A program made the translations under genes and the position numbers. Below are positions 4,907-33,890 of a DNA stretch of 64,000 nucleotides, piece after piece. The DNA comes from Elusimicrobiota bacterium (GTDB lineage: Bacteria > Elusimicrobiota > Elusimicrobia > UBA1565 > UBA9628), in NCBI GenBank assembly GCA_016207605.1, contig JACQPJ010000036.1, positions 1,486 to 65,485 of the forward strand, written 5' to 3'. Under the pieces are notes generated by a model. It was not told the origin of the DNA and did not search any database. It was given only the letters and a program-made list of their open reading frames with translations. Positions within the stretch are counted from its first letter, which is position 1, and every line of letters begins with the position of its first letter.

Positions 4907-5656
4907 ATGACGGACCGGACGAATTCCCCTGCAAAAAAGCGGCGCCGCCCCCTCATCGCGATCAATTGCGATTACGATCCCGGAAAACCGGGCGCCCGCA
5001 TACGTCGGCAAGCCACGCTCTACATGCCCTACATCGAGGCCGTCGTCGAGGCCGGAGGCCTTCCCCTGCTCGTGCCGCCCTCTCCGCCCGGGGTCCTGAA
5101 GGAATACCTGGCCCGAGCCGATGGAATCCTGTTCACGGGCGGCCTGGACTATCCGCCAAGCTTCTACAGCCAGACGGCCCGGCCCGAAGTCGTCGTCCAG
5201 CCCCTCCGGCGCGCCGAGAGCGACCGCAGCCTCATGCGCTTGGTTTTGGATTCCTCAAAGCCGGCCATGGGGATATGCGCCGGCCTCCAGCTCATGAACA
5301 TCACGAAAGGCGGGGCTCTCATCCAGCACCTGCCCAACGCGCCCGAGCACAAGGCGGTCCATGCGGAAAAGGACTCGGCCCACTCCGTATCCGTGCTCTC
5401 CGGCACCCGCCTGCGGCGCATCTTCGGCGCGGGCTCGATCACGGTCAACTCCTCGCACCACCAGGCCGCGGACCCGCGGCGCTTGGCGCCCGGGCTGAGG
5501 GTGGCCGCCAAGGCGCCGGACGGCACCATCGAGGCGCTCGAGCTTCAAGACGCCAAGGGCCGCTTCTTTTTGTTCGTCCAGTGGCACCCCGAGCGCATCC
5601 CCGACAGCGAGCACAGGCGCCGGCTCTTCAGGGCCTTCGTGGCGGCCTGCGGCTAG
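4907..5656 (+). CDS. gamma-glutamyl-gamma-aminobutyrate hydrolase family protein (peptidase C26, class I glutamine amidotransferase-like)
   Basis: The track ORF 4214..5656 is trimmed to the in-frame ATG at 4907, because its upstream part is antisense to the aminotransferase. Motifs: GICAGLQLMN nucleophile elbow, FVQWHPE His/Glu motif, PLIAINCDY N-terminus. Confidence 0.8.
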   Translation: MTDRTNSPAKKRRRPLIAINCDYDPGKPGARIRRQATLYMPYIEAVVEAGGLPLLVPPSPPGVLKEYLARADGILFTGGLDYPPSFYSQTARPEVVVQPLRRAESDRSLMRLVLDSSKPAMGICAGLQLMNITKGGALIQHLPNAPEHKAVHAEKDSAHSVSVLSGTRLRRIFGAGSITVNSSHHQAADPRRLAPGLRVAAKAPDGTIEALELQDAKGRFFLFVQWHPERIPDSEHRRRLFRAFVAACG

Positions 5657-7458
5657 GGCTTCCGATCCGTCCGGTAGATCGGATAGAGGTCCTTGCGCTC
5701 GTCCCAGGAAGAGTGGCGGCGATAGAAAAAGGCCAGCCGAGCCTTGGAATCCTTGGCAAAATCCGGGTCGCCGGCGAGCTTGGCTTCGAACGTCTCCTTC
5801 AGCTCGGGGTCCTTGGCCAGCATCTCGCGCGCCGCCGCCTCGACGACGTAGTCCTCCATGTATTCCTTCTGCTCGAAGGCCATGTTGAAAAACCCCCATG
5901 CCGCCAAGGAATCCGGGCCCCGGGGATCGAGAAGATGCGCCAGCAAACGCGCGCCCCTCTGCGCGGAGGGAACATATAAGGAACCGGCGGGCAACGAACG
6001 CGTCTCCGACGTCCAGGAGCCTTTCAAGTCGAGCCTCTGGCGGCCTTCCACGGATCCCGCAGCGAATTTTGTCTCGGTCGCGCGGAACACCTCGACCGGC
6101 AGGGAAACGGCCTCCGCGATCACGTCGCAAGAAAAGCCGTGCCGCTTGAGCTTTTCGGACACGAGCCCCGCCCAGGCGGCGGGCACCACGTAGCCCCCCT
6201 TGGGAAGCCGCGCGCGGACGGCCGGCCGCAACTCGTCGAACAAAGGGATATTCCAGATCCGCGGCGCGGAGTCGTCGTAGCGGATCCAGGGCTGGCCCGA
6301 AACCGTGGACGGCTCCCGGACGTAGGCATAGCCCCGAAAGCCGATCGGCCGGGATTTCCCGGTGCTCTCGAGCGCCAACGCCACCTCGGCGGGGCCCCCG
6401 CGGCGGTCCTCCGCATCCTGAGCCTCGGCGCCCCGGATCCATCCCGCGCCGTCTTGCGCCGCGAGCTCCAGGAAGTCCAGGACCACGTCCCGCGTCGCGC
6501 GCACCCGCGCGGCGTAGTCCTTCCAGGAATGGGTCTCCACCAGCACCGCCAGGCGGTTGCGCAGCGGCCAATACCCATCGCTGAACCGAGGCGGGGAGAC
6601 GTCCACGGAGAAGCCGGACGCGGGGTCGTCCTTCCTGTTGAGCGCGGGATAGAACTCGATGATGGGGAGATGTCCTTGAGCCTGGAGCTTCTTAAAAACG
6701 GCGTCGCGCGCGGCCGCCGCCGGGCCGCGCAGGCGCGCCGGCCCGTCCTGGGTCGGCGCGACCAGAACGGCCACGTCGTGCTCGAACTTCGATCCGTCCG
6801 TCGTGTGCAGGTCCATGTATAAGATGGGATCCCACGCCGCCAGCAAAGCGAGCATCGCGGCCATCTCCGGAGTGTCCGCCTTGGCGTAGTCGCGATTCAA
6901 GTTCAGGTTCTGAGCCGTCACGCGCCACCCCATCTCCTCGGGGCCGTTCTGGTTGGGGCGATTGTTGGGGCCGAAGCGCTCGTGGCCGTCCGGGTTGAAG
7001 ACCGGGACGAAGACGAGGGTCACGCGCTCCAGCACGCCCGGCAGGACCGTCCCGTCCAGGAGCTCGCGCAGGAGCCAGAACCCCGCGTCCTTGCCCTCGA
7101 TCTCTCCAGGGTGGATGCCGCCCTGGACCATGACGACGACGCGGCTGCCGGCGCGCGCCGACGCGGGATCGAGCGCGCCGTCGGCCGAAGCCGCCAAAAA
7201 GACCATCGGCCGGCCCTCCGCCGTCGTCCCGAACCGCCCGCAGCTCACCCGCCCCGGGTAGCGCGCCGCGAAGGCCCCGCAGAGGGCCTCTGCCTCCGCA
7301 TAGCGCCCCGTCCGCCTCCAGCCGCTCCTCTCGGCAACGGTGGTCAAGGACGCCTGCGCCGAGACAAGCGCGGGACAAAAAACCGCCAAAAACGCCCAAA
7401 GCGGCATGCCGCGCCGCGAGAGGGCCCGGAATAGCTTACGGAGAGGGGAATCGTTCAC
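5653..7458 (-). CDS. secreted M14-family zinc carboxypeptidase
   Basis: 601 aa. It has an N-terminal signal-like segment (PLWAFLAVFCPALVSAQA), GGIHPGEIEG (HxxE zinc motif) and YMDLHTTDG (second His). It starts 8 nt after the stop of the ATP-grasp gene at 7467, so it is probably co-transcribed. Confidence 0.75.
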   Translation of the reverse strand: MNDSPLRKLFRALSRRGMPLWAFLAVFCPALVSAQASLTTVAERSGWRRTGRYAEAEALCGAFAARYPGRVSCGRFGTTAEGRPMVFLAASADGALDPASARAGSRVVVMVQGGIHPGEIEGKDAGFWLLRELLDGTVLPGVLERVTLVFVPVFNPDGHERFGPNNRPNQNGPEEMGWRVTAQNLNLNRDYAKADTPEMAAMLALLAAWDPILYMDLHTTDGSKFEHDVAVLVAPTQDGPARLRGPAAAARDAVFKKLQAQGHLPIIEFYPALNRKDDPASGFSVDVSPPRFSDGYWPLRNRLAVLVETHSWKDYAARVRATRDVVLDFLELAAQDGAGWIRGAEAQDAEDRRGGPAEVALALESTGKSRPIGFRGYAYVREPSTVSGQPWIRYDDSAPRIWNIPLFDELRPAVRARLPKGGYVVPAAWAGLVSEKLKRHGFSCDVIAEAVSLPVEVFRATETKFAAGSVEGRQRLDLKGSWTSETRSLPAGSLYVPSAQRGARLLAHLLDPRGPDSLAAWGFFNMAFEQKEYMEDYVVEAAAREMLAKDPELKETFEAKLAGDPDFAKDSKARLAFFYRRHSSWDERKDLYPIYRTDRKP

Positions 7459-7466
7459 GGCAAACG

Positions 7467-9461
7467 CTAATGAGCCGCGCCCTTGCCGTTGGGTGAGGGG
7501 GCCGCCGGAGCCACCTCGACCCGGAGATCATGGCGCCGCCTCTGCTCGGCGTAGTTGCGGCGAGCCTCTCGCGGCGTGTTCCCCTCAACCGCATAGAGCG
7601 CAACAGGGGTCAATTTCAAGGGGTCCGCCTGCAGGGGCTCGCCCGGGGCCTTGGCGCCCACTCCGGACGCCCAAACGACATCGGCCTGCCGCGCGTCCTC
7701 CCAACCCCGGATGCCCAGCAAAGTTCCCGCCCGCGGCGGAAACAGGATGCGCCCGTAAATGTGCTTCATCGGCTTGGGGCTGGCCGCGGGTCGACCCCGA
7801 ATCCCGAGCGCGATCATGGCATGCTCCAGCACCAAGTTGACGCCGAAGACCTCCTGATGGAACGGAACAAACGGCCGCCCCGGCACGCGCGGGTTGGCGT
7901 CAACGACGTACATGTCCCCGTGCCCGTCAATGATTATCTCGAAATGAAAGATGCCGTCCTCAGCGCCGGCGGCCCGGGCCAGCGCGACGGCCTCCTTCAA
8001 GGCGCGCGCCTGGCGCTTGTTGCCCAGCGTGGACGGGAGGGTGAGCCCCGTCAGCGCCGCGGACCCCCTGCGGGGCCGATGATTGTCGGCGATGCGGCCG
8101 TACAAAAGCTCGCCGTCGCGCAGCGCGAAGTCAACGGAAATCTGGCGGCCCTCAAGCAGACGCGCAAACGTGATGCCGAGGTCCGGGTCAAAGGTCTCGT
8201 TATGGACCATGCCGTCGGAACGCGCGGCGGACTCCGCGTGGATCTTGCGCGCGAGCCTGCGGGCCTGCTCGCGGGCCTCGGCGACGGTGCGCACCTTGAC
8301 GACGCCGTCGGAAGAGCCCCCGGTCGCGGGCTTGAGGACGGCGGGCACGCCGACTTCCCGCAAAGCCCGCTCCAGATCGCCCTCGTCCACTTCCCCCTCC
8401 CGCAAACGGACCCTCAGGGACGCAAGCACGGGCAAGCCGGCCCTTGCGGCCAAGACCGGCAGGTTCGCCTTGTCGCGCAGGGCCTGGACCGCCTCGTAAG
8501 ACATATGACGCAAGCCCCAGCGCTGGGCCATCAGCGCCGAGACGTCCACGTCGTCTTCGACGAAGGAAAGGATGCCGTCGCCGCGGATGCCGGCGCGCTC
8601 GACCGCCTCCACGGACAAGCGCGCGAGCCGCCGGCGCCGTTCCTGGTGGGTTTCGCCGTCTTTCGCGGGAATGTCAACCCGCACGACTTTCTCCACGAAC
8701 GGTTCGGGAGGATATCTCGTGTAGATATCCTCAGCCTCGTCCGATTCACGGAGGTAAACCAGGATCACCTTGACTCCGGCGGACGTGAGCATCTCCAGGT
8801 TCTTCTGGTGCTGAGGACCGACGGCATAGCCCACGACGATGAGGACCTTGTCCTGCATGGCGGCCAGGCGCTCGCCTTGGGAAACGGGCTCGGTCTCGCG
8901 GCGCCGGTGCGCGCCGTCAAAGCCGTCGCCGATGAGGGCCGGCGGCTGTTCCGCGAAAGCTTCGAGCTGGACCTGCGCGCCCTGTTGTTCCTCGAGCGCG
9001 GGAGCGTCGGGAGCGGGAGCGGTCGCCCGAAGTGATTGGGAATCGGCGGACGCCGGACGCGCCGAACGCTGAGACCGAAGCCTCCGGCCGCTCCGCGCGA
9101 AGGCGCCGCGAGCCGTGCCCGAGGGCCGCGCCGCAACGCGGGATTCCTCCCGGCCGGTCGCCGTCAATGCCGGAGCCGGCGCGAGCTCCGCGATTTGACC
9201 CGCGGCGGCGGCCCCGGGCTGGGCGAGGACAAACGGCTCGGGCAACCCTTCGAATCCGGCGCCCAAGACAACCTCCAGCGGCGCCGCGTCCTCCAACGGC
9301 AGAGATTGAATCTCAATCGCCGGGCTTTCGGCGACGACGTTCAGCACTCGCGATTGCCCGAAAGACGCCGTCCGCGACCCCGCGAAGAGGACCGCGCCCG
9401 CGGCCCATCCCGCCGCCAGGAAACCGGAACCCCGCCGCCACGCGTTGTCTCGATGCATCAT
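7467..9461 (-). CDS. ATP-grasp domain protein with an N-terminal twin-Arg/hydrophobic export-like segment and a long Ala/Pro/Ser/Arg-rich linker
   Basis: 664 aa. Motifs: GVPAVLKPATGGSSDGVVKVRTVAEA (ATP-grasp Lys/Gly-rich loop), GIFHFEIIIDGHGDMYVVDANPRVPG (Mg/ATP-site E/D-x-N). The pre-domain is DKVLIVVGYAVG..GVKVILVY and the N-terminus is WRRGSGFLAAGWAAGAVLFAG. Confidence 0.75.
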   Translation of the reverse strand: MMHRDNAWRRGSGFLAAGWAAGAVLFAGSRTASFGQSRVLNVVAESPAIEIQSLPLEDAAPLEVVLGAGFEGLPEPFVLAQPGAAAAGQIAELAPAPALTATGREESRVAARPSGTARGAFARSGRRLRSQRSARPASADSQSLRATAPAPDAPALEEQQGAQVQLEAFAEQPPALIGDGFDGAHRRRETEPVSQGERLAAMQDKVLIVVGYAVGPQHQKNLEMLTSAGVKVILVYLRESDEAEDIYTRYPPEPFVEKVVRVDIPAKDGETHQERRRRLARLSVEAVERAGIRGDGILSFVEDDVDVSALMAQRWGLRHMSYEAVQALRDKANLPVLAARAGLPVLASLRVRLREGEVDEGDLERALREVGVPAVLKPATGGSSDGVVKVRTVAEAREQARRLARKIHAESAARSDGMVHNETFDPDLGITFARLLEGRQISVDFALRDGELLYGRIADNHRPRRGSAALTGLTLPSTLGNKRQARALKEAVALARAAGAEDGIFHFEIIIDGHGDMYVVDANPRVPGRPFVPFHQEVFGVNLVLEHAMIALGIRGRPAASPKPMKHIYGRILFPPRAGTLLGIRGWEDARQADVVWASGVGAKAPGEPLQADPLKLTPVALYAVEGNTPREARRNYAEQRRRHDLRVEVAPAAPSPNGKGAAH

Positions 9462-9468
9462 TCTTTTT

Positions 9469-9513
9469 ATTATAGCGAGAATTGACCTAGATCAACCAGG
9501 ACCTTTGGACCTA
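9469..9513 (-). promoter_or_regulatory. shared cis-module (gene orientation): TAGGTCCAAAGGTCC box (9499-9513), palindrome TTGATCTAGGTCAA (9482-9495), TATAAT (9469-9474) 7 nt before the ATG at 9461
   Basis: Read directly. The distance from box to -10 is 24 nt, identical to the module at 2198-2241. Confidence 0.5.
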
Positions 9514-9581
9514 CCTCCATCTAGGCCTAATGGCCCCGCGCTCAGCACGCGCCTGACGCGGCGCAACCGCCGCCGGCAAGC

Positions 9582-13640: not shown

Positions 13641-13650
13641 GCGTAAATCG

Positions 13651-13727
13651 TATCTAGATCCGCCCGCGGGCGACAGGGCCTTTGGTCCCAGGCCGGGCTG
13701 GAGAAAAGACCTAGATCCTCCTAGGTC
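13651..13727 (-). promoter_or_regulatory. degenerate copy of the shared cis-module: GATCTAGATA (13651-13660), GGGACCAAAGGCC (13677-13689), GACCTAGGAGGATCTAGGTC (13708-13727)
   Basis: Read directly in the 99-nt spacer between the genes at 13740..17081 and 9582..13640. It is less conserved than the other copies. Confidence 0.35.
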
Positions 13728-13739
13728 GAAAGTCCCATG

Positions 13740-17081: not shown

Positions 17082-17096
17082 GGTCTTGTCCCGCGC

Positions 17097-18629: not shown

Positions 18630-18709
18630 GAAGCCTCCTCGGAAATCCATTCACAAACAGCAGGTGCCGGATTTTATCAAGTTTCTGCGGTTGGCGACGC
18701 ATCGGCGTC

Positions 18710-21700
18710 TCATGAGCGCTGCCGGGAATCCAAAGGCACCCAAACGGGCGGCTCCGGCGGGCGTCCGTTGCCGGACGCTCGCGCTTGCCCGCGGCGAGCC
18801 TTCAATCCCATCCAGTAGGGCGCGACGTACCGCTCGAACGCGCCGATGATCAGCGCAACGGCGTAGACCCCGGCAAACCACGCCAGCACGGGCAGAAAAT
18901 TCTCCGGCGTAAGATGTCCCAGGAGCGTCTCCTGATCCTCCGGCGCCTGAAATGGCTTGCCGTAAAGAATCCCATAAAGGAGGAAGCTGACCAAGGGAAG
19001 CTGGAACATCAGCAGAGCGGAGTGAAAAATCGTGACGCTGGCGGAGGCGTCCCGGCCATTTTCGTCCGTGCTTTGCGTCCGCAGGGCCCGAAGCATGAGG
19101 TTGTTGAGGCCGAGGTCGGTGGCTGTGCCGTAGTAGAAGTACATGAAGCAGCCCGCGGCCGCGGCGAGCAGCCCCAGCACGGGATGGCCGAACGCGATGA
19201 GCCCGAGGGCGGCCGGCAGGAACCCCATCCAAGTCACGGCCTGAAATGCGAAGGAAAAGAACGGCTTATAGTAGTCGTCCCAGAGCCGTTCTTCAGGAAC
19301 GGCACCCGTGGGGCCCCGCCAGCCGACGATGGAGCTCGGCGCCAGCTTCTGACAGAATGCGCATAATTGATAAGCCCAAAATCGCCTGTCCCGCCAGCTC
19401 TGGCCGGGGGGCGGCAAAGGCTGAATCCCCAAACTCATGATCATGGCGCCAAGAAAACCGACGCCCCCAATGGCGCCCCCGAAGACGGAGCACCACAGCA
19501 TGGCGTGCCCGGGATGCAAGGAGGCCGCCGCCGCGTAGGCGATCGTCGGCACGAGCACGACGATGAGGGCGACCTGAACGTTTTTATAGGCAATGTTGGC
19601 AAAGACCCTGACTTTTAGAATCTTGCTTCTCCATGTGGCGACGGCGCCGTGCACCGCGGCGTTCAAGCGTCGTCCCAAAGGCTCCCGGTTGCCCATGTCG
19701 GGCTTGACGCGCAAATCCCGCGAGCGGACATACATCATCCACGTGGTGATGACGAACGCCGCGGCGATTCCCAGCGTGATCAGGGGCCCCAGAACGGCGT
19801 TCAGCTGAGGGTAGCCCTTCACGAGCAGGACGAGCGGAAGGCTGAGAAACCAGCGGCCAAAAACCTGCCCGATGGCCTGCGTGGCCTGGAGACGCACGTT
19901 GGGGGCGCTCTGGTCGGCCTCGTCCAGCGGCAGGTGGAACTGGATGGAGCTCTGCACCCAAAGCGCCTGGTTATAGGAAATCATGGCGCCCGGAGTGACG
20001 ATGAGCCCATCCAAAAAGGCCAAGACGAGGATCGGATTGTAGAGATATCCATACCAGGCGACGGGCGGCTCGATCAAGCCGGGCAGGCAGAAGGCCACGA
20101 CCGCCATCACGCTCCAGCAGGCGGCACGTCCCGCCGAACTCAGCCACAAAAGCGTCTGAATCCGCACCAGGGACAGAACAGGGCCGCTCAACAGCGCGCC
20201 GATGCTGCAGCCCAGAAAACTGTAGGCCCAATAGAAGTTCGTCTGCAGCGTCGGCCCGCCCAGAGCCAGCATGCCGTAAATCATCATCGCCTGAACGACG
20301 ACGAAGCCCAGGCTGCGCCACCACTCCATCTTTTCGAGGATCGGGTAGACCTCGCGGGCCAACTGCAGGCTCGCTTCATAGCGCAGCTTGAACGCGTCCA
20401 GATGGAAGATCGGAAGGAAGGGCCGCTCCTGCGTGACGACCGGCTCCTTGCCGCCCGGGGGTCTGATCGTCAAGGCAACGGGCCCCACCGCGTCCATCCG
20501 ACGCGACGCGGCCTCGACATCCGGGGCCTCCACGCGCAGGGTGGCGACGACGTCGGACGGCTGGACCGCGTCGCCGGCCCTCTTGAGCAGGCGCGCGGTC
20601 CCGTCTGCGACGAGACGCTCCAAGCCCGCGATGCTTTCCACGAACCCGGCGCTTGGGGCGACGAGGGACCATAGCCCGACCACGGAGTCCCGTTTGGACG
20701 CCTTGGCCGGGGCGACTCCGAAGAGAGAGAGTATCTCGTCGCTGACCGAAGGAACCTCGTCGCGCCGGCGGAAGCCGGGGTCCCGGCGGCCCTCGTCCAC
20801 GGCAAGACCGGACGGCTTGGGACCCAGGCCCGTGACCGAAATGTTCACCCGATACGTCCCGGACCAGATCCCGGCAGCCTCCAGCGCCGCCAGCCCGACG
20901 GCGACGAGCTTGTCAATGTGAGCTTTCTGCTCCAGGTTCTGCCGGGCGAACTCCTCCCGCTGCGCCTCGGTCTGTTCAGGAAAGGGCGGGAATTCCCTGG
21001 CCGCGGAGGACGGCATCTGCGACGGGGAAACCGCCGCGGAGCGGTCATCGCTCACGTCCCCGTGGGAGAGAGACGCCACCTGAAGCTTGCCCCCGATGGT
21101 CTGCACGCCGAGATAGAGATCCACCTGGGGCCCATCGTCGCGTCCCGACCTCACCAGATAGATTTCGCCCGCGGGCACCCCGCGGCCGCGAAGGGTCCGC
21201 CACGCCGCGACGGCCTCCAGGCCATCCCGCGCGTCTATGCCGGGCTCGGAGCCGCGGCGGGAATGCAGGGTGACCATCCCGTTGACCTCGTCATAGGCCC
21301 GCGCCACGTCCGCCTCACGAAGCAGGTGGTCGCGGAACGTCATGCTGAGTTCGCGCACCGGGGACAATGCCCTCAGCATCTGCAGCGGATCGGCGACGGC
21401 CTCAACGGCTCGGCTGGAGTTGCCGAGCACGCCGCGACCGCGGCTGAGTCCGCGAAGATGATCAACGACCGCTCCGCCAAGCTCCTGGAAGCCGGGCGCC
21501 GGCCACACCGCGACGGGGCCCGGCGCGCGCGCCGCGGCCCGGGAGACCGACTCAACGGCGTCGGCGACGCCCCGCGCTTCCCGCGCTTCGACCGGCGCCT
21601 CAATGAACTGTTCTGGGCCAAGCAAGTCCCGGTACCGCGCCCCTCGGACCGCGGTGTCCGCGAATTTGACCGTCAATCCGCGCTCGCGCGAAAGCGCCAA

Positions 21701-22408
21701 AATCTCCTGGACCTCATGCCGCCGCGCTCCCAGAACGATCAAAAGACTGCCCCGAAGAGGCTCCGACGTCCCCAGGGAATACGCCCCCGCCGGCATATCC
21801 CTGGGGAGGGACGCCTCCTGGACAGCCCCGGCGTCCGCGCCGACAAGGACGTCCCGCGATTCTAAAACCTGACCATCGAACGCGCCTCCCGTCCGACCCG
21901 GACTCGAACGAACTCCCGCATGGCCGCGGACGGCGCGAACGCCTTGCCGGACCGCGGCCGCCAACGCCGCGCCGGCCCGGCCGACGGCGCCGACCGCCAA
22001 CCCTGCCCAGGACGCTGAAGGTGCGGGCTTCGCGATCAGGCGGCGGGGAGGAGAAGAGTTTGACGCAGCAATCCGACTCCCCGCGTCCTGTCCCCACGCC
22101 GACGCGTGCGCCGCCAAGCCGGGCGCCGCCGGAGCGAGGGCGACCTCTTCGGGAGGGACGCTAGACGCGCCGGCCGACGCATCGCCTCCGCCGGGAAAGC
22201 CTGCCAGCCCGGACCACGGCTCCAACATTCCTCCCGCCGCCGCGAGCGGAGCAAGGGGCGGACGGACCTCGGTTGCCGCGATCGGCTGCATAGACGCCAT
22301 TGCGTGGTAGCAGGGCAGGCCCGGGGAAAATGCGACAAGGATGGCGGCCAGCATCGACGCGGTCAGACGCCTAAGGACCATCCAGGCCCGCCTCACGCAT
22401 TGTGTCAC
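18710..22408 (-). CDS. fusion protein: signal-like N-terminus, low-complexity linker, ATP-grasp-like (possibly degenerate) domain, and a C-terminal polytopic membrane domain of about 550 aa
   Basis: 1232 aa. The GTG start overlaps the upstream stop (GTGA). The N-terminus RRLTASMLAAILVAFSPGLPCYHAMA is paralogous to the 22405..25938 protein. The central layout (LLIVLGARRHE..GLTVKF.., ..NGMVTLHSRRGSEPG..) mirrors the pre-domain and central domain of the 664-aa ATP-grasp but lacks a clear KP..GGS..G motif. At least 10 hydrophobic helices follow from about aa 690 to the end. Confidence 0.6.
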   Translation of the reverse strand: MTQCVRRAWMVLRRLTASMLAAILVAFSPGLPCYHAMASMQPIAATEVRPPLAPLAAAGGMLEPWSGLAGFPGGGDASAGASSVPPEEVALAPAAPGLAAHASAWGQDAGSRIAASNSSPPRRLIAKPAPSASWAGLAVGAVGRAGAALAAAVRQGVRAVRGHAGVRSSPGRTGGAFDGQVLESRDVLVGADAGAVQEASLPRDMPAGAYSLGTSEPLRGSLLIVLGARRHEVQEILALSRERGLTVKFADTAVRGARYRDLLGPEQFIEAPVEAREARGVADAVESVSRAAARAPGPVAVWPAPGFQELGGAVVDHLRGLSRGRGVLGNSSRAVEAVADPLQMLRALSPVRELSMTFRDHLLREADVARAYDEVNGMVTLHSRRGSEPGIDARDGLEAVAAWRTLRGRGVPAGEIYLVRSGRDDGPQVDLYLGVQTIGGKLQVASLSHGDVSDDRSAAVSPSQMPSSAAREFPPFPEQTEAQREEFARQNLEQKAHIDKLVAVGLAALEAAGIWSGTYRVNISVTGLGPKPSGLAVDEGRRDPGFRRRDEVPSVSDEILSLFGVAPAKASKRDSVVGLWSLVAPSAGFVESIAGLERLVADGTARLLKRAGDAVQPSDVVATLRVEAPDVEAASRRMDAVGPVALTIRPPGGKEPVVTQERPFLPIFHLDAFKLRYEASLQLAREVYPILEKMEWWRSLGFVVVQAMMIYGMLALGGPTLQTNFYWAYSFLGCSIGALLSGPVLSLVRIQTLLWLSSAGRAACWSVMAVVAFCLPGLIEPPVAWYGYLYNPILVLAFLDGLIVTPGAMISYNQALWVQSSIQFHLPLDEADQSAPNVRLQATQAIGQVFGRWFLSLPLVLLVKGYPQLNAVLGPLITLGIAAAFVITTWMMYVRSRDLRVKPDMGNREPLGRRLNAAVHGAVATWRSKILKVRVFANIAYKNVQVALIVVLVPTIAYAAAASLHPGHAMLWCSVFGGAIGGVGFLGAMIMSLGIQPLPPPGQSWRDRRFWAYQLCAFCQKLAPSSIVGWRGPTGAVPEERLWDDYYKPFFSFAFQAVTWMGFLPAALGLIAFGHPVLGLLAAAAGCFMYFYYGTATDLGLNNLMLRALRTQSTDENGRDASASVTIFHSALLMFQLPLVSFLLYGILYGKPFQAPEDQETLLGHLTPENFLPVLAWFAGVYAVALIIGAFERYVAPYWMGLKARRGQARASGNGRPPEPPVWVPLDSRQRS

Positions 22409-25400
22409 GGGGCCTTAGGGGCCTTAAGGTCTTTTGCGGCCGCGAGCTCTTCGGGCGTGAAGAGCCAGCCCGGACCATAGATGACGACAACCGCCCCCAC
22501 GAGGACGCACCAGAGGGGAACCAAATTCATCGCGACCGGAACGGCCAGGGACAGGAAAACCGCCTGGGCCGCGCCCGTCACCAGCATCTCCACGGAACCC
22601 TGGATCGCGAACAGCCTTTCCCGGGCGTCCCTTCCCGCGGCGTCATATCCTTGCTGCTGAATCGTGGTCAGCGTCCAGGTGCTGAATCCCACCCGAGGTG
22701 CGATGAAATACATGTGGAACAGAAAGGACCCCAACGCGGCGAGAAGCACGCCGGGCCAAAAGGCATGGGAAACGACCGCCGCGCCAAGGGGAACCAGCAG
22801 CACGGGCAAGGTAGACCAGAACTGCACCTTAAAGAAAGGGCCATACTTGGCGTAACTTTCTTTTGCGTTTTTAGGCGGTTGCCAATCATGCAGGCTCGAG
22901 GGGGTCATGCGCCGCGCCCAGCCCAGCAGGACCGACAAAAAGCGCTCGATGGGGCGGCCGAGCCGCTTCGTGGCGGTCCAGCCGCGAAACGCGCTCAGCA
23001 TGGCTAAGGCGCCCAGCATGCCGACGCTCGTCAAAGCGACGGAGGAAAAGACGCCCCAGGCCTGGGATATCTTGTCGTCGCCGGACACGAGGTAGTGAAG
23101 GCCGAAATACAAAAGCACGACGCTGGGCACGCCCTCGTAGATGGTGCGGTCGCTGGAATTCATCCCGAAGCGCTTGTAAAAAAAAGCTTTTTCGAGCGCC
23201 AAGACGCCAGCCGCCCAGAATTCGGCAAGCACTGAGCCGATGCGGACCGGTTCCGGGTTGCCCATATCCTCGTTTTTAGGCATCGCACGAAGGTAGAAAG
23301 GTAGGCCGATCACGCCCAGCGCGAGACAGGCCGCGGCCATCGCCAAGGCTAAGGCGACGGCCGCCGACCCGGAAGCGCCCGTCGCCAGCAGAACGGCTCC
23401 AAAGGACAGGGCAAGAGGGCTGACGAGACGCAGTCCCGCGCTCCAAGTCTGACGGAACACGCCCCAATCCTTGAAATCGTCTTTATCCACGGGGAAATGG
23501 TGGCGCCGGGCAAGGGCGCCGATCCCGCCCTCGTCGCTGTCTAGGAGACACGCGAACGCGGTGACGACTCCCTGCAGGAACGTGAGGGCGAAATAGGCCG
23601 TGTCAAACGCCGGGCCGCCAAGCAGGAGAGCGGCGGCGGGAACGCCCAACGTCCAGATCAGCGTCGTCGCCGCCATCCCGCCGGGGATGACGGCCCTCAG
23701 GCGCAGGCGTGCGAGTATGGGCGCGGCGATCAGGACCACCAAGGCCACGGGCAGGATATAGCCCCACGTGGCGGTGGCCGCGGTCCAAGCGCCGCCCTTC
23801 ACCAAGCCGAGAGGAATCAAAAAAGAGGACCGGACGATCAACTGCGCGAGGCCGGCGATCTGGCCGCGCATGTAGCCTTGCAGGATATGTTTGCCCCGCA
23901 GAGCCGCCGTCTCGCGGACTTCCTGGTGCGCTTTTTCCACATCCACCCGCGCGCCCGCGCGGTCGTCGCCCGGCCGGCGGACCACCTCTCCCTGCGCGGT
24001 TCGAACGTCCACGAAGATACTCGACATAAACTCCCTGGCGCGCTGATCAACCTGCGCGGGACTGTCTCCGTCCCTGGCGCGGATGGCGATGCGGGCGATG
24101 ACGTCGGCGGGGCCGAGAGAATCCCCCGGTCGTTTGAGCGGCAGAAACCGGACGGTCGGATCAGCCGAAAACGGCGCCACAATGCCGACCAGCGTGCCGG
24201 CAACCTCCGCGACCAGCTCTCGGGATTGAGCCTCCTGCGGGCGGCCCAGCCCCGGCGCCACGGCCGCGCCCAAAAGGGAGAAAAGCTGCGCCTCGACCAG
24301 CGCGGCGCCTTCGGCGGCGTGCAGGACGGAACCCCAAACGCCGCGCGAGACGTCCTCGATCCGGGGGCCCTCCGAAGTCCATGCCAGAACCGCGCTCACC
24401 GCGCCGGATCGGACGCCGAGCTTTTTCGCCGCCCGAAGGAGCGCGCCAACGAACTCATCGTCGCCGGGCCGCGAGGCAAGGACCGCGCCGTTTCGCGTCA
24501 GGCGGTCTGAAACGGCCGCTCGAACCGCTCGCAATTCCAGTCCCTCTTCGCCAAGGACCTCCTCAACGATGAGGTCCACCTGGCGCCGGGGGCCTTCCCA
24601 CTCGCGGTCCATCATGACGCCCTCGGGGTCAACGCGGGCGACCTGCCGCCATGCCTCGGCCGCCTCCTGTTCGCTGGAGGCGCGACGCTCAATGCCCTTC
24701 ACGCGCCGCGACCAAACGCGCGCCGCGACCATGGGTCCGCCGCCCATGTCGCGGAACGCCTTGACGGCGGCCTCAGGACTCGGCAGGTCGCTGCGCACCG
24801 TCGTCGCCTGCTCCGGGTCGCGCTTGAGGCTCTCACGCATCCCCGCGCGCTGCAAGCGGCGCACAGTCTCCAGCGAGTCGCCGAGCACGCGGGGACCGCC
24901 GCCTTGGTTGAGACGGTCTACGATGCGCCCCGCAAGCTCCTCGAAACCCTCCGCCGGCTGTACGGCGGCGAAAGGACGGCGTGCATGGCGACGGGCGATC
25001 TCCTCAAGAACGGCATCCGCCTGTTCCGGGGTCAAGCTGTCCGCGGACGCCGGCATGGCAGGCAGGACGCGTACTTTCCCATCGAGATCGCCGAGTCGGG
25101 ACCATTCGCTCCCATCCTCCAGCACATGAACCTTAACGCCATGCGCTTGGGCGACCCTCGCCCAAGTCCTGGCATACTCAGACCCGTTGGACCCGACCAA
25201 GAGGACGGCCCTGCCGCGGAGGGACGCGGAATCGCGCTTCGCCGGCCGCGCGGCGGCAGGAACGGCCGCGTCCTGCGCGGCCGGCGCGAGCCCCAAGCTG
25301 ACGCGCCCATCGTTGGCGCGCCCGGGCTCGCGCTCCTCCTCCTCCCCGAGGACGTCAGGGCTGTCGGCGCCTGAACGTTTCGCATCTCCCGGCGCCGCCG

Positions 25401-25938
25401 CCTGTCCGTCAAAACGAAGTCTGCCGGGATCGCGGAACCGGGCGCCGCGTTTGTCCTGGGCGTTAGAGACCCCGGAGAGCTCCTGGACTTGGGCCAGCCC
25501 GCCCGTGATGGATGGCTGCTCGGCCCGAGATCGAGGAGACGCGGTCCAATGCGCCGCTTGCGGCGCGCGGGCATGAGCGAGAAAGGCCGGGCGCGCAACG
25601 GTATGAACGGCAGCGCGCCGCAGCAAGCCGGCCGCATCCGCCGTGCCGTTGGCGGACAACTCGAAGACGCCGAAGGAATAGGCGCCGAAAAGCCCCGAAA
25701 AGCCGGCTTCCCCGGCGAAGGCGTCCGCCGCTGCCGGCGGAGTCAAGGCGACGTCGAGCCGGGGAAGAGATAAAACGACCGGGGCGGACGCCTCCCCCTG
25801 GGCCATGGCCTGGTAGCAGGGCAGGCCCGGGGACAGGACGACCAGGGACGCGGCGACAAGCGCGGCCGTCAACCGCTTAAAAACGCCCCGCTGGAAATTG
25901 ACCTGGATCATTTGATTGTAGTCAATTTTATTCAGCAA
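22405..25938 (-). CDS. paralog of 18710..22408: signal-like N-terminus, linker, ATP-grasp-like domain and C-terminal polytopic membrane domain
   Basis: 1177 aa. N-terminus: FKRLTAALVAASLVVLSPGLPCYQAMA. Central region: AVLLVGSNGSEY..GVKVHVLED, GGGPMVAARVWSRRVKGIERRASSEQEA. Multiple TM helices follow from about aa 700. The start is uncertain: TTG at 25938 or ATG at about 25911, and the palindromic motif overlaps the latter. Confidence 0.6.
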   Translation of the reverse strand: MLNKIDYNQMIQVNFQRGVFKRLTAALVAASLVVLSPGLPCYQAMAQGEASAPVVLSLPRLDVALTPPAAADAFAGEAGFSGLFGAYSFGVFELSANGTADAAGLLRRAAVHTVARPAFLAHARAPQAAHWTASPRSRAEQPSITGGLAQVQELSGVSNAQDKRGARFRDPGRLRFDGQAAAPGDAKRSGADSPDVLGEEEEREPGRANDGRVSLGLAPAAQDAAVPAAARPAKRDSASLRGRAVLLVGSNGSEYARTWARVAQAHGVKVHVLEDGSEWSRLGDLDGKVRVLPAMPASADSLTPEQADAVLEEIARRHARRPFAAVQPAEGFEELAGRIVDRLNQGGGPRVLGDSLETVRRLQRAGMRESLKRDPEQATTVRSDLPSPEAAVKAFRDMGGGPMVAARVWSRRVKGIERRASSEQEAAEAWRQVARVDPEGVMMDREWEGPRRQVDLIVEEVLGEEGLELRAVRAAVSDRLTRNGAVLASRPGDDEFVGALLRAAKKLGVRSGAVSAVLAWTSEGPRIEDVSRGVWGSVLHAAEGAALVEAQLFSLLGAAVAPGLGRPQEAQSRELVAEVAGTLVGIVAPFSADPTVRFLPLKRPGDSLGPADVIARIAIRARDGDSPAQVDQRAREFMSSIFVDVRTAQGEVVRRPGDDRAGARVDVEKAHQEVRETAALRGKHILQGYMRGQIAGLAQLIVRSSFLIPLGLVKGGAWTAATATWGYILPVALVVLIAAPILARLRLRAVIPGGMAATTLIWTLGVPAAALLLGGPAFDTAYFALTFLQGVVTAFACLLDSDEGGIGALARRHHFPVDKDDFKDWGVFRQTWSAGLRLVSPLALSFGAVLLATGASGSAAVALALAMAAACLALGVIGLPFYLRAMPKNEDMGNPEPVRIGSVLAEFWAAGVLALEKAFFYKRFGMNSSDRTIYEGVPSVVLLYFGLHYLVSGDDKISQAWGVFSSVALTSVGMLGALAMLSAFRGWTATKRLGRPIERFLSVLLGWARRMTPSSLHDWQPPKNAKESYAKYGPFFKVQFWSTLPVLLVPLGAAVVSHAFWPGVLLAALGSFLFHMYFIAPRVGFSTWTLTTIQQQGYDAAGRDARERLFAIQGSVEMLVTGAAQAVFLSLAVPVAMNLVPLWCVLVGAVVVIYGPGWLFTPEELAAAKDLKAPKAP

Positions 25939-25993
25939 ACACGGAAAATCACAGGGTCTTAAGACCTATTCCTTACGGACCAATGGACCTAGG
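25898..25993 (-). promoter_or_regulatory. shared cis-module upstream of and overlapping the start of gene 22405..25938
   Basis: In gene orientation it holds CTAGGTCCATTGGTCC (about 25977-25993), the perfect palindrome GGTCTTAAGACC (about 25955-25966), TTGACTACAATCAA (25912-25925) and TGATCCAGGTCAA (25898-25910). All were read directly; coordinates are +/-1 nt. Confidence 0.45.
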
Positions 25994-27723: not shown

Positions 27724-27809
27724 GGTAGGGTGGCTGAGCGGTCAAAAGCACCGGTCTGTAAAACCGGCGGCAAACGCCTACGCAGGTTCGAATCCTGCCC
27801 CTACCACCA
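27724..27809 (+). tRNA. tRNA-Tyr (anticodon GTA) with long variable arm and encoded CCA
   Basis: 86 nt. Hand-folded cloverleaf: acceptor GGTAGGG/CCCTACC, anticodon stem CCGGT/ACCGG with loop CTGTAAA, variable arm GGC-AAAC-GCC, T-arm GCAGG-TTCGAAT-CCTGC, discriminator A plus CCA. Confidence 0.9.
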
Positions 27810-33827: not shown

Positions 33828-33890
33828 GGCCGCGACCCTTCGGGCTCGGCACAGACGCGTCTGAGGAAAGCCTCTTAGCGTCTAGCGTCC
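33828..33890 (-). repeat. 56-bp structured repeat family, copy B (inverted orientation), between convergent OPT and M28 genes; overlaps the last ~5 codons and stop of the M28 gene
   Basis: The reverse complement reads GACGCTAAGAGGCTTTCCTCAGACGCGTC TGTGCC GAGCCCGAAGGGTCGCGGC. Confidence 0.7.

What the first reader, a model, noticed from the sequence alone, without database searches (positions are those of the whole stretch)
5653..25993. Seven-gene co-directional cluster built around five giant, export-signal-bearing ATP-grasp-family proteins: a candidate undescribed peptide or polyamino-acid ligation and export system
What the sequence shows:
- All genes lie on the minus strand with tight junctions. 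Going down the strand these are a GTGA overlap at 22405-22408, about 80 nt, 15 nt, 99 nt, 120 nt and 8 nt.
- The order is: membrane-fused ATP-grasp-like protein (1177 aa), its paralog (1232 aa), an NhaC-type transporter, a double-module PGM1-like ligase (1113 aa), a second one (1352 aa), a canonical ATP-grasp (664 aa) and a secreted M14 carboxypeptidase.
- That gives up to 7 ATP-grasp-type modules in 18 kb.
- Every large protein starts with a basic plus hydrophobic signal-like segment followed by 100-250 aa of Ala/Pro/Gly/Ser/Arg-rich linker.

What established knowledge adds:
- ATP-grasp and PGM1-type enzymes ligate carboxylates to amines, as in peptide bonds, poly-Glu tails and cyanophycin.
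- I know of no characterised system combining these architectures.

Inference:
- The cluster may make or remodel a peptide-like polymer or cell-envelope modification.
- The membrane fusions would act in export or anchoring.
- The NhaC protein would supply substrate or ions.
- The M14 enzyme would trim C-termini.
Basis: partly seen in the sequence, partly recalled or inferred. Interest (0 to 1): 0.88.

Follow-up and report, generated by a model that had tools for sequence, protein, structure and literature searches.

The report
Membrane-linked amino-acid ligase and exporter gene cluster
An uncultured Elusimicrobia bacterium carries a rare gene cluster with three apparently working ATP-driven amino-acid ligases, two transporters fused to "dead" copies of such a ligase, an ion/solute carrier and a secreted trimming peptidase; it most likely makes and exports an unknown small peptide-like compound.

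Summary
**Layout.** The seven-gene minus-strand block is real. The window comes from an Elusimicrobia MAG.

**What was confirmed**
- P6 is an L-amino-acid-ligase (LAL) type ATP-grasp enzyme.
- The N-terminal modules of P4 and P5 are PGM1/BesA-type ATP-grasp ligases. All three keep their catalytic motifs.
- P3 is an NhaC-family carrier.
- P7 is an M14 carboxypeptidase with a signal peptide.

**What changed**
- P1 and P2 are a well-folded but catalytically degenerate LAL domain fused to a divergent 12-helix MFS transporter. Pfam has no model for this transporter.
- The claimed second modules of P4 and P5 match nothing. That gives 5 ATP-grasp modules, 3 of them probably active, not "up to 7".
- The MFS topology puts the P1/P2 ligase-like domain in the cytoplasm. 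This conflicts with reading the conserved N-terminal signal-like segments as export signals, and the conflict is unresolved.

**How common it is**
- Only one related, rearranged cluster was found (L002). There a PGM1-like module and a P6-like module are fused in one protein.
- In Pseudomonas tructae, an active LAL and the same MFS family are adjacent genes.

**Best reading:** an orphan cluster for ribosome-independent peptide assembly and export, in the manner of bacilysin, pheganomycin or β-ethynylserine. It is a new variant of a known kind, and the product is unknown.

The parts
22405..25938 (-). P1 (1177 aa). It has a signal-like N-terminus with an SPGLPCYQAMA motif, a low-complexity linker of about 200 aa, a degenerate L-amino-acid-ligase-fold domain (residues about 239-665, nt 23944-25224) and a 12-helix MFS domain (residues 683-1177, nt 22408-23892).
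   Evidence: The AF2 model has pLDDT 89.4. Foldseek matches the soluble domain to RizA/BL00235 at E 1e-11 and the membrane domain to MdfA and other MFS at E 6e-6. The catalytic motifs are lost.
18710..22408 (-). P2 (1232 aa), a full-length paralog of P1 with the same N-terminal motif, a degenerate ligase-like domain and an MFS domain (nt 18713-20344).
   Evidence: BLASTP against P1 gives 25% identity at E 3e-31. The motifs are lost. Lys/Arg counts are 30 inside and 0 outside.
17097..18650 (-). P3 (517 aa), an NhaC-family ion/solute carrier.
   Evidence: Pfam Na_H_antiporter scores 4e-40. NCBIfam NhaC, ArcD and Tet(35) models hit far below their cut-offs.
13740..17081 (-). P4 (1113 aa). It has a signal-like N-terminus and linker, a PGM1/BesA-type ATP-grasp ligase module (residues about 215-700, nt 14985-16439) and an unassigned C-terminal region (residues 700-1113, nt 13743-14984).
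   Evidence: NCBIfam BesA scores 3.7e-21 and PDB 8yi6 scores 4e-14. Residues invariant with P5 and the L002 homolog include K.(N/E)DG.SG.GN and E.N.R. The C-terminal region matches nothing.
9582..13640 (-). P5 (1352 aa), a paralog of P4. Its PGM1/BesA-type module (nt 11064-12959) carries a charged insertion of about 100 aa (alignment columns about 167-274). Its C-terminal region (nt 9585-11063) is unassigned.
   Evidence: NCBIfam BesA scores 3.1e-14. BLASTP against P4 gives E 6e-31.
7467..9461 (-). P6 (664 aa). It has a signal-like N-terminus and linker, then an L-amino-acid-ligase-type ATP-grasp domain (residues 196-664, nt 7470-8876) with intact motifs.
   Evidence: Pfam hits ATP-grasp_4 at 3e-9 and LAL_C2. 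The best PDB sequence hit is BacD at 1.6e-8. It is 40% identical to the C-terminal half of the L002 fusion protein.
5653..7458 (-). P7 (601 aa), an M14 zinc carboxypeptidase with a signal peptide and an unassigned C-terminal region of about 270 aa.
   Evidence: Pfam Peptidase_M14 scores 3e-20. The sequence shows IHPGE (HxxE) and NLNRDY. The C-terminal part has no Pfam hit.
4925..5656 (+). A Peptidase_C26 (gamma-glutamyl-hydrolase type) gene, convergent with P7. It may belong to the system or may be a housekeeping neighbour.
   Evidence: Pfam scores 1.6e-51. It is 74% identical to the C26 gene inside the related L002 cluster.
25963..25991 (-). A shared cis-element upstream of P1: TAGGTCCATTGGTCC plus a second TAGGTC.
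13674..13736 (-). Copies of the same element upstream of P5. They include the palindrome GACCTAGGAGGATCTAGGTC followed by a T-run.
9484..9536 (-). Copies of the same element upstream of P6: TAGGTCCAAAGGTCC and GATCTAGGTC.

Best explanation
The cluster is an orphan gene cluster for ribosome-independent assembly and export of a small peptide-like metabolite.

**Proposed mechanism**
- Three ATP-grasp amide ligases act in the cytoplasm at the inner face of the membrane: the LAL-type P6 and the PGM1/BesA-type modules of P4 and P5. Each activates a carboxylate as an acyl-phosphate and joins it to an amine. Together they build a short chain, possibly with gamma-glutamyl or non-proteinogenic units.
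- P1 and P2 are MFS secondary transporters. Their N-terminal cytoplasmic domain is a catalytically dead copy of an LAL. It most likely serves as a substrate-recognition or docking domain that hands the product, or a toxic intermediate, to the pore.
- P3 moves an ion or an amino-acid-type substrate.
- The secreted M14 carboxypeptidase P7 trims or activates the exported compound outside the cytoplasm.
- The signal-like N-termini plus long disordered linkers would tether the ligases to the membrane next to the exporters.

**Shown**
- The folds and families.
- Which catalytic motifs are intact and which are lost.
- The MFS topology.
- The fusion and adjacency links.
- The shared upstream DNA motif.

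**Inferred**
- The direction of transport.
- The small size of the product.
- The docking role of the dead ligase domain.
- The tethering role of the N-termini.
For: **Ligases**
- P4, P5 and P6 keep the ATP-grasp Lys/Gly-rich loop and the E/D-x-N-x-R motif.

**P1 and P2 as pseudo-ligase plus transporter**
- P1's soluble domain has an LAL fold: Foldseek matches RizA 4wd3 and 3vot at E 1e-11 with target TM-scores of 0.73-0.76, on a model with pLDDT 89.
- P1, P2 and the ortholog P0004 have replaced the Lys, the HxE and the ExNxR residues that P0005, P0008, P0010 and P6 keep.
- All top-50 Foldseek hits of the membrane domain are MFS transporters, led by the drug/H+ antiporter MdfA.
- Lys/Arg counts of 30-34 inside against 0-2 outside place the ligase-like domain in the cytoplasm.

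**Functional links**
- In L002, a PGM1-like module and a P6-like module (40% identical to P6) are one 1231-aa protein. It lies on the same contig as a P1 ortholog and a C26 peptidase.
- In Pseudomonas tructae, an active LAL without any signal and the same MFS family are overlapping genes. They sit in a cluster with radical-SAM, 2OG-oxygenase, PLP and further ATP-grasp genes.
- P0005 is the same pair fused, with intact motifs.
- P0008 (signal, linker, LAL) sits next to an ABC exporter.

**Co-regulation**
- The 15-mer TAGGTCCAWWGGTCC and GATCTAGGTC recur upstream of P1, P5 and P6. Six of 7 near-matches in 64 kb lie there.
Against: - No product, precursor-supplying enzymes or resistance gene can be named.
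- The seven-gene block was not found elsewhere. Both genome-collection scans were empty. 27 metagenomic PGM1-like relatives carry none of the partners.
- The N-termini look like ordinary cleavable Sec/Tat signal peptides: a positive n-region, a 13-15-residue h-region that is less hydrophobic than real TM helices, and AxA sites. A plausible second hydrophobic segment that would return the chain to the cytoplasm exists in only some proteins. The membrane-tether idea is therefore weak for P5 and P6.
- The C26 gene is far more conserved (74%) than the ligases (about 30-40%). It may be a housekeeping neighbour.
- About 700 aa of P4 and P5 remain unexplained.
Confidence: 0.45

Rival explanations
1. 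Extracytoplasmic system. P4, P5, P6 and P7 are exported by their Sec/Tat-like signals. They ligate or remodel amino acids on a periplasmic or cell-surface target such as peptidoglycan stem peptides or an envelope protein. P1, P2 and P3 deliver substrates across the membrane.
For: - All four proteins have n-h-c signal-like N-termini with AxA sites. P4, P5, P6 and P7 have Arg-Arg in the n-region, and P4-P6 have a basic residue in the c-region (sequence).
- Their h-regions are less hydrophobic than true TM helices.
- Relatives from other organisms (P0008, P0010, P0024, P0025) keep the signal plus an Ala/Pro-rich linker.
- P7 is a plausible periplasmic peptidase.
- Housekeeping proteins in the window lack such N-termini.
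Against: - ATP-grasp enzymes need ATP, and the periplasm is not known to supply it (established knowledge).
- The same type of N-terminus sits on P1, P2, P0004, P0005, P0007 and P0019. In P1, P2, P0004 and P0005, which were counted, the MFS topology forces the following domain to be cytoplasmic.
- The Pseudomonas tructae homolog of the LAL has no signal.
- Arg-Arg is common in the n-regions of this 68% GC genome.
- The linkers of P1 and P6 are Arg-rich.
Confidence: 0.15
2. Poly-amino-acid system. The ligases polymerise one or two amino acids (poly-Glu, poly-Asp or cyanophycin-like, or a tail on a protein C-terminus as RimK does). P1 and P2 export the polymer. The M14 and C26 peptidases shorten it.
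For: - An ATP-grasp ligase is paired with an M14 carboxypeptidase and a gamma-glutamyl-hydrolase-type C26 peptidase.
- BesA-type enzymes form gamma-glutamyl bonds (NCBIfam name).
- Some LALs oligomerise amino acids (established knowledge; RizB was not tested here).
Against: - There is no Mur-ligase-type, PgsB/C/A-like or cyanophycin-synthetase-like domain.
- The RimK model hits only P6, at E 0.005 and far below its cut-off.
- MFS carriers move small solutes, not polymers (established knowledge).
- The closest structural and sequence relatives are dipeptide-forming enzymes: BacD, RizA and BL00235.
Confidence: 0.12
3. The block is not one functional unit. It is a chance juxtaposition, on a possible genomic island, of separately acting paralogous ligase genes, transporters and peptide-catabolic genes.
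For: - The full block was not seen elsewhere.
- Relatives of P1 and P2 stand alone.
- The cluster's GC3 (0.78-0.86) is lower than that of the flanks (0.89-0.96), and a tRNA-Tyr and a Fic gene adjoin it.
- There is a terminator-like hairpin between P4 and P5.
Against: - The junctions are tight, including a 4-nt overlap.
- A shared upstream DNA motif is restricted to the three larger intergenic regions.
- The P4/5-type and P6-type modules are fused in L002, next to a P1 ortholog.
- LAL and this MFS family are adjacent or fused in other phyla.
- All ligases share the peculiar N-terminal architecture.
Confidence: 0.13

Closest known systems
Bacilysin-type dipeptide systems: L-amino-acid ligase BacD (YwfE) with the MFS exporter BacE; also the LALs RizA and BL00235
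   Same: - P6 is an LAL-type ATP-grasp. Its best PDB sequence hits are BacD at 1.6e-8 and BL00235 at 6.6e-8.
- The ligase-like domain of P1 has the RizA/BL00235 fold.
- Dedicated MFS carriers are encoded in the same gene string.
   Different: - Here the MFS carriers are fused to a catalytically dead LAL domain.
- Two PGM1/BesA-type ligases are added.
- No anticapsin-type precursor genes are present.
- All ligases carry a signal-like N-terminus and a disordered linker of 160-200 aa.
- That BacE is the bacilysin exporter is recalled knowledge, not tested here.
PGM1 (pheganomycin peptide ligase) and BesA (L-propargylglycine--L-glutamate ligase): the PGM1-type ATP-grasp clade
   Same: - The N-modules of P4 and P5 match the BesA model (4e-21 and 3e-14) and the BesA structure 8yi6 (4e-14) over about 380 residues.
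- PGM1 links a non-proteinogenic amino acid to a peptide (PMC8939145).
   Different: - Scores of 75 and 53 bits are far below the equivalog cut-off of 750.
- Pfam PGM1_C is not hit in P4 or P5.
- P4 and P5 have extra N-terminal regions of about 215-230 aa and unassigned C-terminal regions of 300-490 aa.
- No Bes or pheganomycin partner genes are present.
The LAL plus MFS-like gene pair of Pseudomonas tructae (CP035952.1; P0009 is WP_130263572.1) and the fused metagenomic protein P0005
   Same: - They have the same LAL subfamily and the same Pfam-less MFS family as P1 and P2, either adjacent with overlapping genes or fused.
   Different: - In those proteins the ligase keeps all catalytic motifs. 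In P1, P2 and P0004 the motifs are lost.
- The Pseudomonas LAL has no signal-like N-terminus.
- None of these proteins is characterised.
Ligase/carboxypeptidase cycles: RimK or TTLL glutamylases with M14 (CCP) deglutamylases
   Same: - An ATP-grasp ligase is paired with an M14 carboxypeptidase.
- P4 has a weak IQCH-like ATP-grasp hit at 7e-6, below the cut-off.
   Different: - P7 carries a signal peptide. Its only structural sequence hits are weak ones to pancreatic-type (A/B) carboxypeptidases.
- The RimK model is at noise level.
- No protein substrate is evident.

Membership tests
ATP-grasp superfamily, L-amino-acid ligase (LAL) type: P6 | ATP-grasp domain plus LAL C-terminal domain detectable by profile | tested here: met
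   Pfam ATP-grasp_4 scores 3.4e-9, above its cut-off. LAL_C2 scores 1.8e-4, below its cut-off. PDB BacD scores 1.6e-8.
ATP-grasp superfamily, L-amino-acid ligase (LAL) type: P6 | ATP/Mg-binding residues: Lys before a Gly-rich loop, HxE, and E/D-x-N-x-R | tested here: met
   VLKPATGGSSDGV, FHFE and DANPR align with the motifs of P0005, P0008 and P0010.
ATP-grasp superfamily, L-amino-acid ligase (LAL) type: P6 | ATP-dependent ligation of two amino acids | not testable with these tools
   This needs an enzyme assay.
LAL-type ATP-grasp: soluble domains of P1 and P2 | Three-lobed ATP-grasp/LAL fold | tested here: met
   The AF2 model has pLDDT 89.4 and pTM 0.85. Foldseek matches RizA and BL00235 at E 1e-11 with target TM-scores of 0.73-0.76. 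P2 is assigned by homology to P1.
LAL-type ATP-grasp: soluble domains of P1 and P2 | ATP/Mg-binding residues conserved | tested here: not met
   The Lys is replaced by Ala (P1) or Leu (P2). HxE becomes SxV (P1) or RxN (P2). ExNxR becomes DVS.. (P1) or DEG.. (P2). The ortholog P0004 shows the same pattern of losses. There is no Pfam hit.
PGM1/BesA-type ATP-grasp ligases: N-modules of P4 and P5 | Profile and structure-sequence similarity across the ligase core | tested here: met
   NCBIfam NF042917 scores 3.7e-21 over P4 229-614 and 3.1e-14 for P5. PDB 8yi6 scores 4e-14.
PGM1/BesA-type ATP-grasp ligases: N-modules of P4 and P5 | Equivalog-level score, that is, the same function as BesA | tested here: not met
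   Scores are 75 and 53 bits against a cut-off of 750.
PGM1/BesA-type ATP-grasp ligases: N-modules of P4 and P5 | Catalytic Lys, Gly-rich loop and E-x-N-x-R retained | tested here: met
   VLKAEDGASGEGN and VETNLR in P4, and VKLNNGVSGLGN and VEVNPR in P5, are invariant with the L002 homolog.
ATP-grasp: C-terminal regions of P4 (700-1113) and P5 (860-1352), the claimed "second module" | Any detectable ATP-grasp similarity | tested here: not met
   There is no Pfam hit at E<=1. hhalign against LAL profiles gives probability below 1%. The PDB profile search is empty. No homologs were found.
Major facilitator superfamily: C-terminal domains of P1 and P2 | 12 TM helices in 6+6 arrangement with an MFS fold | tested here: met
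   The AF2 model has pLDDT 85.7. All top-50 Foldseek hits are MFS. MdfA 4zp0 scores E 6e-6, with target TM-scores of 0.64-0.68 among the best hits.
Major facilitator superfamily: C-terminal domains of P1 and P2 | N-in/C-in topology with a long cytoplasmic central loop | tested here: met
   Lys/Arg counts are 30-34 inside against 0-2 outside in P1, P2, P0004 and P0005. All long loops lie on the side of the termini.
Major facilitator superfamily: C-terminal domains of P1 and P2 | Match to a curated MFS sequence model | tested here: not met
   There is no Pfam family for P1 or P2. MFS_1 appears only at E 0.71 in 2 of 13 relatives and at 7e-4 in P0019. The PDB profile search is empty.
Cleavable Sec/Tat signal peptide: N-termini of P1, P2, P4, P5, P6 and P7 | Positive n-region, short h-region, and a c-region with small residues at -3 and -1 | tested here: met
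   This was judged by inspection of the sequences and hydrophobicity windows. No dedicated predictor was available.
Cleavable Sec/Tat signal peptide: N-termini of P1, P2, P4, P5, P6 and P7 | The downstream domain lies outside the cytoplasm | tested here: not met
   For P1 and P2 the MFS topology puts the preceding domain in the cytoplasm. For P4-P6 the test is inconclusive. For P7 an outside location is plausible.
Peptidase M14: P7 | M14 profile match and zinc/substrate motifs | tested here: met
   Pfam scores 3e-20, covering only profile positions 3-163 of 286. HPGE (HxxE) and NLNRD are visible in the sequence. The later His and Glu were not verified by alignment.
Poly-gamma-glutamate synthase or cyanophycin synthetase type polymer systems | Mur-ligase-type or PgsB/C/A or CphA domains | tested here: not met
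   None appear among the Pfam and NCBIfam hits of the seven proteins.
Anti-phage defence systems (PADLOC) | Match of any cluster protein to a defence model | tested here: not met
   The seven proteins and C26 have no hits. Only the neighbouring Fic protein hits SoFic/PDC-S04.

The most novel reading that the evidence does not exclude
The soluble ATP-grasp ligases P4-P6, and relatives such as P0008 and P0010, really are exported by their N-terminal signal peptides. They would then form amide bonds outside the cytoplasm, giving a periplasmic or cell-surface ATP-dependent peptide-ligation system. The fused MFS and NhaC carriers would supply substrates across the membrane. The evidence here excludes this for P1 and P2 but not for the unfused ligases.
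Probability: 0.12. Interest if true: 0.9.

Novelty: new variant of a known kind. Interest (0 to 1): 0.55.

Why it matters
**A possible new source of small peptide natural products**
- If the reading is right, this is an NRPS-independent route to a small peptide natural product in an uncultured phylum (Elusimicrobia) with almost no known secondary metabolism.

**Two reusable observations**
1. A Pfam-less MFS family is repeatedly coupled to L-amino-acid ligases. The pair is split in Pseudomonas, fused elsewhere, and fused to a dead ligase here. This suggests ligase-docked exporters and a pseudoenzyme acting as a transporter accessory domain.
2. A conserved signal-like N-terminus plus disordered linker sits on ATP-dependent enzymes, and its topology cannot be reconciled with simple export.

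Either observation could guide genome mining and transporter-enzyme coupling studies. Neither addresses a long-standing open question.

Tried and rejected
**Searches that led nowhere**
- The word-indexed homolog searches with full-length P1 and P4 returned only the query proteins themselves, and the search with the P4/P5 C-terminal alignment returned nothing. The 8000-candidate list was probably saturated by low-complexity words.
- The exact look-up of P6 was not on record.
- Two genome-collection scans, using patterns from the P1/P0004/P0005 and the P6/L002 alignments, found no relatives. A four-sequence alignment was too divergent to make patterns.
- The metagenome scan with the P4/P5 C-terminal alignment found nothing.
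- The metagenome scan with the PGM1-like cores found 27 stand-alone relatives and no cluster partners.
- Six of the look-ups of relatives' contigs showed no similar cluster: P0005, P0010, P0007, P0018, P0014 and P0019.
- Literature searches for ATP-grasp/MFS fusions returned nothing relevant.

**Hypotheses tested and rejected**
- P4/P5 C-terminal regions as a second ATP-grasp. The Pfam, hhalign and PDB profile tests were all negative. Only a short stretch of about 50 aa aligns with the inter-module segment of the L002 fusion protein.
- A sequence-level MFS assignment for the membrane domain. It failed. Only the fold search worked.
- A helical-hairpin model, in which a second hydrophobic segment returns the chain to the cytoplasm. 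It fits P1, P2, P4, P0004 and P0007. It does not fit P5, P6, P0005, P0008, P0010 or the L002 fusion, so it is not adopted as general.
- A defence-system reading. PADLOC was negative.
- A polymer-synthase reading. No Mur-ligase, Pgs or CphA domains are present.

Full report
**Origin and layout**

The window comes from an Elusimicrobia MAG. P1 and P4 are identical to NCBI proteins HY552_04230 and HY552_04215 on an 87.8-kb contig. The window is about 68% GC.

- P1 22405-25938
- P2 18710-22408
- P3 17097-18650
- P4 13740-17081
- P5 9582-13640
- P6 7467-9461
- P7 5653-7458

P1 and P2 overlap by GTGA. The other gaps are 59, 15, 99, 120 and 8 nt. Third-position GC marks all seven as coding. Their GC3 (0.78-0.86) is lower than that of the flanking housekeeping genes (0.89-0.96).

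Upstream of P1 lie a Fic-domain gene and a tRNA-Tyr.

**What each protein is**

- **P3** is an NhaC-family carrier (Pfam 4e-40).
- **P7** is an M14 carboxypeptidase (3e-20) with a classical signal peptide and an unassigned C-terminal region of about 270 aa.
- **P6** hits ATP-grasp_4 and LAL_C2. Its best solved relatives are the L-amino-acid ligases BacD and BL00235.
- **P4 and P5** are paralogs. Their N-terminal modules match the BesA (PGM1-type) model at 4e-21 and 3e-14, and the BesA structure 8yi6 at 4e-14. These scores are far below the equivalog cut-off, so they indicate the clade, not the function.
- **P4, P5 and P6** all keep the ATP-grasp Lys, the Gly-rich loop and the E/D-x-N-x-R residues.
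- **The C-terminal 300-490 aa of P4 and P5** are homologous to each other (30% identity) but match nothing else:
  - No Pfam hit.
  - No PDB-sequence hit.
  - No profile-profile similarity to LAL or PGM1-type alignments, except a stretch of about 50 aa that also occurs between the two modules of the L002 fusion protein.
  - No homologs in two large searches.
  - The \"double-module\" description is therefore unproven.

**P1 and P2**

Neither protein hits any Pfam or NCBIfam model. A profile of the two, without the N-terminal 220-240 aa, was searched against 1.8 billion representatives. It found 39 proteins.

- The hits to the soluble half are ATP-grasp_4 plus LAL_C2 proteins.
- One hit, P0005 (1082 aa), has the same fusion to the same membrane domain.
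- With this alignment AlphaFold gave a confident model of P1 residues 239-1177 (pLDDT 89.4, pTM 0.85).
- The soluble part of that model matches the L-amino-acid ligases RizA and BL00235 (Foldseek E 1e-11, target TM-scores 0.73-0.76).
- A separate model of residues 683-1177 (pLDDT 85.7) matches only MFS transporters in the top 50. The drug/H+ antiporter MdfA is best at E 6e-6.
- Sequence models do not see this MFS family. UniRef calls the Pseudomonas tructae member an \"MFS transporter\".

In the alignment of the ligase domains, P1, P2 and the ortholog P0004 have replaced three motifs: the ATP-binding Lys with its Gly-rich loop, the HxE, and the ExNxR. P0005, P0008, P0010, P6 and the L002 protein keep all of them.

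P1 and P2 are therefore pseudo-ligase/MFS fusions. The cluster has five ATP-grasp folds, and three of them are probably catalytic.

**The topology problem**

All six non-carrier proteins start with a signal-like segment. It has a positive n-region, a 13-15-residue h-region that is less hydrophobic than the real TM helices of P1, and AxA-type sites. The five large proteins follow it with about 160-200 aa of linker that is 41-58% Ala/Pro/Gly/Ser. Housekeeping proteins in the window lack this feature.

The N-terminal segment is the best-conserved part of P1, P2 and P0004 (…SPGLPCY(Q/H)A(M/L)A). A related motif sits on P0007 and P0019. Those two share only the MFS domain with P1. The motif also occurs on some unfused LAL relatives.

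The MFS domains nevertheless have the canonical orientation. All long loops, the C-tail and the segment before TM1 carry 30-34 Lys/Arg. The six short opposite loops carry 0-2. This holds in P1, P2, P0004 and P0005. The ligase-like domain before TM1 must therefore be cytoplasmic, which an N-terminal cleavable export signal would not allow.

A hairpin would solve this: a second weakly hydrophobic stretch followed by an Arg-rich flank. One is plausible in P1, P2, P4, P0004 and P0007, but not in P5, P6, P0005, P0008, P0010 or the L002 fusion.

The Pseudomonas tructae LAL partner has no such N-terminus at all. My preferred reading is that the N-termini tether cytoplasmic enzymes to the membrane. 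This is an inference, and true export of P4-P6 is not excluded.

**Is it one system?**

Evidence for a single system:
- The junctions are tight.
- A shared DNA element lies upstream of P1, P5 and P6. TAGGTCCAWWGGTCC occurs exactly twice, and 6 of 7 matches with up to 3 mismatches in 64 kb lie in these three intergenic regions. GATCTAGGTC occurs exactly twice.
- All ligases share the same N-terminal architecture.
- On contig L002, a 1231-aa protein fuses a P4/P5-type module (28-30% identity) to a P6-type module (40% identity). It lies a few genes from a P1 ortholog (P0004, 36% identity in the MFS part) and from a C26 peptidase that is 74% identical to the window's.
- In Pseudomonas tructae, an active LAL and the same MFS family are overlapping genes. 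They sit in a cluster that also encodes radical-SAM, 2OG-oxygenase, PLP, glutamine-synthetase-like and further ATP-grasp proteins.
- P0008 lies next to an ABC exporter.

Evidence against a widely conserved block:
- Both scans of species-representative genomes were empty.
- 27 metagenomic PGM1-like relatives carry none of the partners.
- Other relatives of the fusion proteins stand alone.
- A terminator-like hairpin separates P4 and P5.

**Most likely mechanism**

The closest analogies are the NRPS-independent peptide pathways built from stand-alone ATP-grasp ligases with a dedicated exporter. These include the LALs of bacilysin and rhizocticin, and the PGM1-type ligases of pheganomycin and β-ethynylserine. 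PGM1's role is cited from PMC8939145.

I propose the following, at 0.45 confidence:
- P4, P5 and P6 assemble a short peptide-like compound at the inner face of the membrane.
- The dead ligase domains of P1 and P2 bind the product or an intermediate and feed it to their MFS pores.
- P3 moves an ion or amino-acid-type substrate.
- P7 processes the compound outside the cytoplasm.
- C26 may remove a gamma-glutamyl group inside the cell.

The rivals are:
- Extracytoplasmic ligation (0.15).
- A poly-amino-acid or tailing system (0.12).
- No functional unit (0.13).

No match to anti-phage defence models was found for the cluster.

**Verdict**

The module count and the \"export signal\" reading are not supported. 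The cluster is an orphan and apparently lineage-restricted. It is a new variant of a known kind, with two unusual features:
- Pseudo-ligase/MFS fusions of a transporter family that Pfam does not model.
- Signal-like N-termini on ATP-dependent enzymes.

The product, about 700 aa of P4 and P5, and the role of the N-termini remain unknown. Interest is moderate at 0.55.

Noticed in passing
window 9484-9536, 13674-13736, 25963-25991; one more copy at 2198-2212: A repeated DNA element (TAGGTCCAWWGGTCC, GATCTAGGTC, paired TAGGTC) is confined almost entirely to the three larger intergenic regions of the cluster. Six of the 16 TAGGTC matches in 64 kb fall in 308 nt. It looks like a shared operator or promoter element. 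The copy at 13708-13727 forms a hairpin followed by a T-run.
   Followed up: partly
window 26028-27482 (-) and 27724-27809 (+): A Fic-domain gene that hits the PADLOC SoFic/PDC-S04 models and a tRNA-Tyr lie directly upstream of the cluster. The Fic gene and the cluster have lower GC3 (0.77-0.86) than the flanking genes (0.89-0.96). This may be a tRNA-associated genomic island.
   Followed up: partly
window 4925-5656 (+): A Peptidase_C26 (gamma-glutamyl-hydrolase type) gene is convergent with P7, and their ends overlap by 4 nt. It is 74% identical to the C26 gene inside the related L002 cluster. That is much more conserved than the ligases.
   Followed up: partly
N-termini of P1 (window 25798-25938) and P2 (22270-22408); also P0004, P0007, P0019, P0024: A conserved N-terminal motif, h-region-(S/A)PG(L/A/P)x(C/P/A)(Y/F)(Q/E/H/A)A(M/L/G)(A/G), is shared by proteins whose only other common part is the C-terminal MFS-like domain, and by some unfused LAL relatives. 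It is the best-conserved segment between the 25%-identical paralogs P1 and P2. It may be a specific sorting or assembly signal of unknown kind.
   Followed up: partly
P0015 and other hits (P0016, P0022, P0026, P0030, P0031): The Pfam-less MFS family (motif D-x-D-E/C-G-G...Q-H/Y-x-F/L-P-V/I-D/N-D) also occurs in a eukaryotic transcriptome, the gregarine Lankesteria (EukProt, P0015). The other listed hits have eukaryote-like low-complexity tails, but their source was not checked.
   Followed up: no
L009 (Pseudomonas tructae CP035952.1, 1755310-1772791): This appears to be an uncharacterised biosynthetic cluster. It encodes a glutamine-synthetase-like protein, a PS-decarboxylase-like protein, HalD, an LAL, the MFS-like protein, a PLP enzyme, a radical-SAM enzyme, a second ATP-grasp, a 2OG-oxygenase and an MFS_1 transporter.
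   Followed up: no
window 2248-3582 (+): A 444-aa ORF with good coding signal (GC3 0.84) has no Pfam or PADLOC hit. A copy of the cluster's DNA element lies just upstream at 2198-2212.
   Followed up: no
window 31667-33817 (+) and 33875-35452 (-): An OPT oligopeptide transporter and an M28 peptidase lie about 6-10 kb from the cluster. In L002, an M28/M20 peptidase and a PTR2-type peptide transporter sit between the ligase genes. Peptide-handling genes thus recur near both clusters.
   Followed up: no
window about 12150-12450 (P5 residues about 395-495): P5 carries a highly charged, probably helical insertion of about 100 aa inside the N-terminal part of its PGM1-type module. P4 and the L002 homolog lack it (alignment columns about 167-274).
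   Followed up: no
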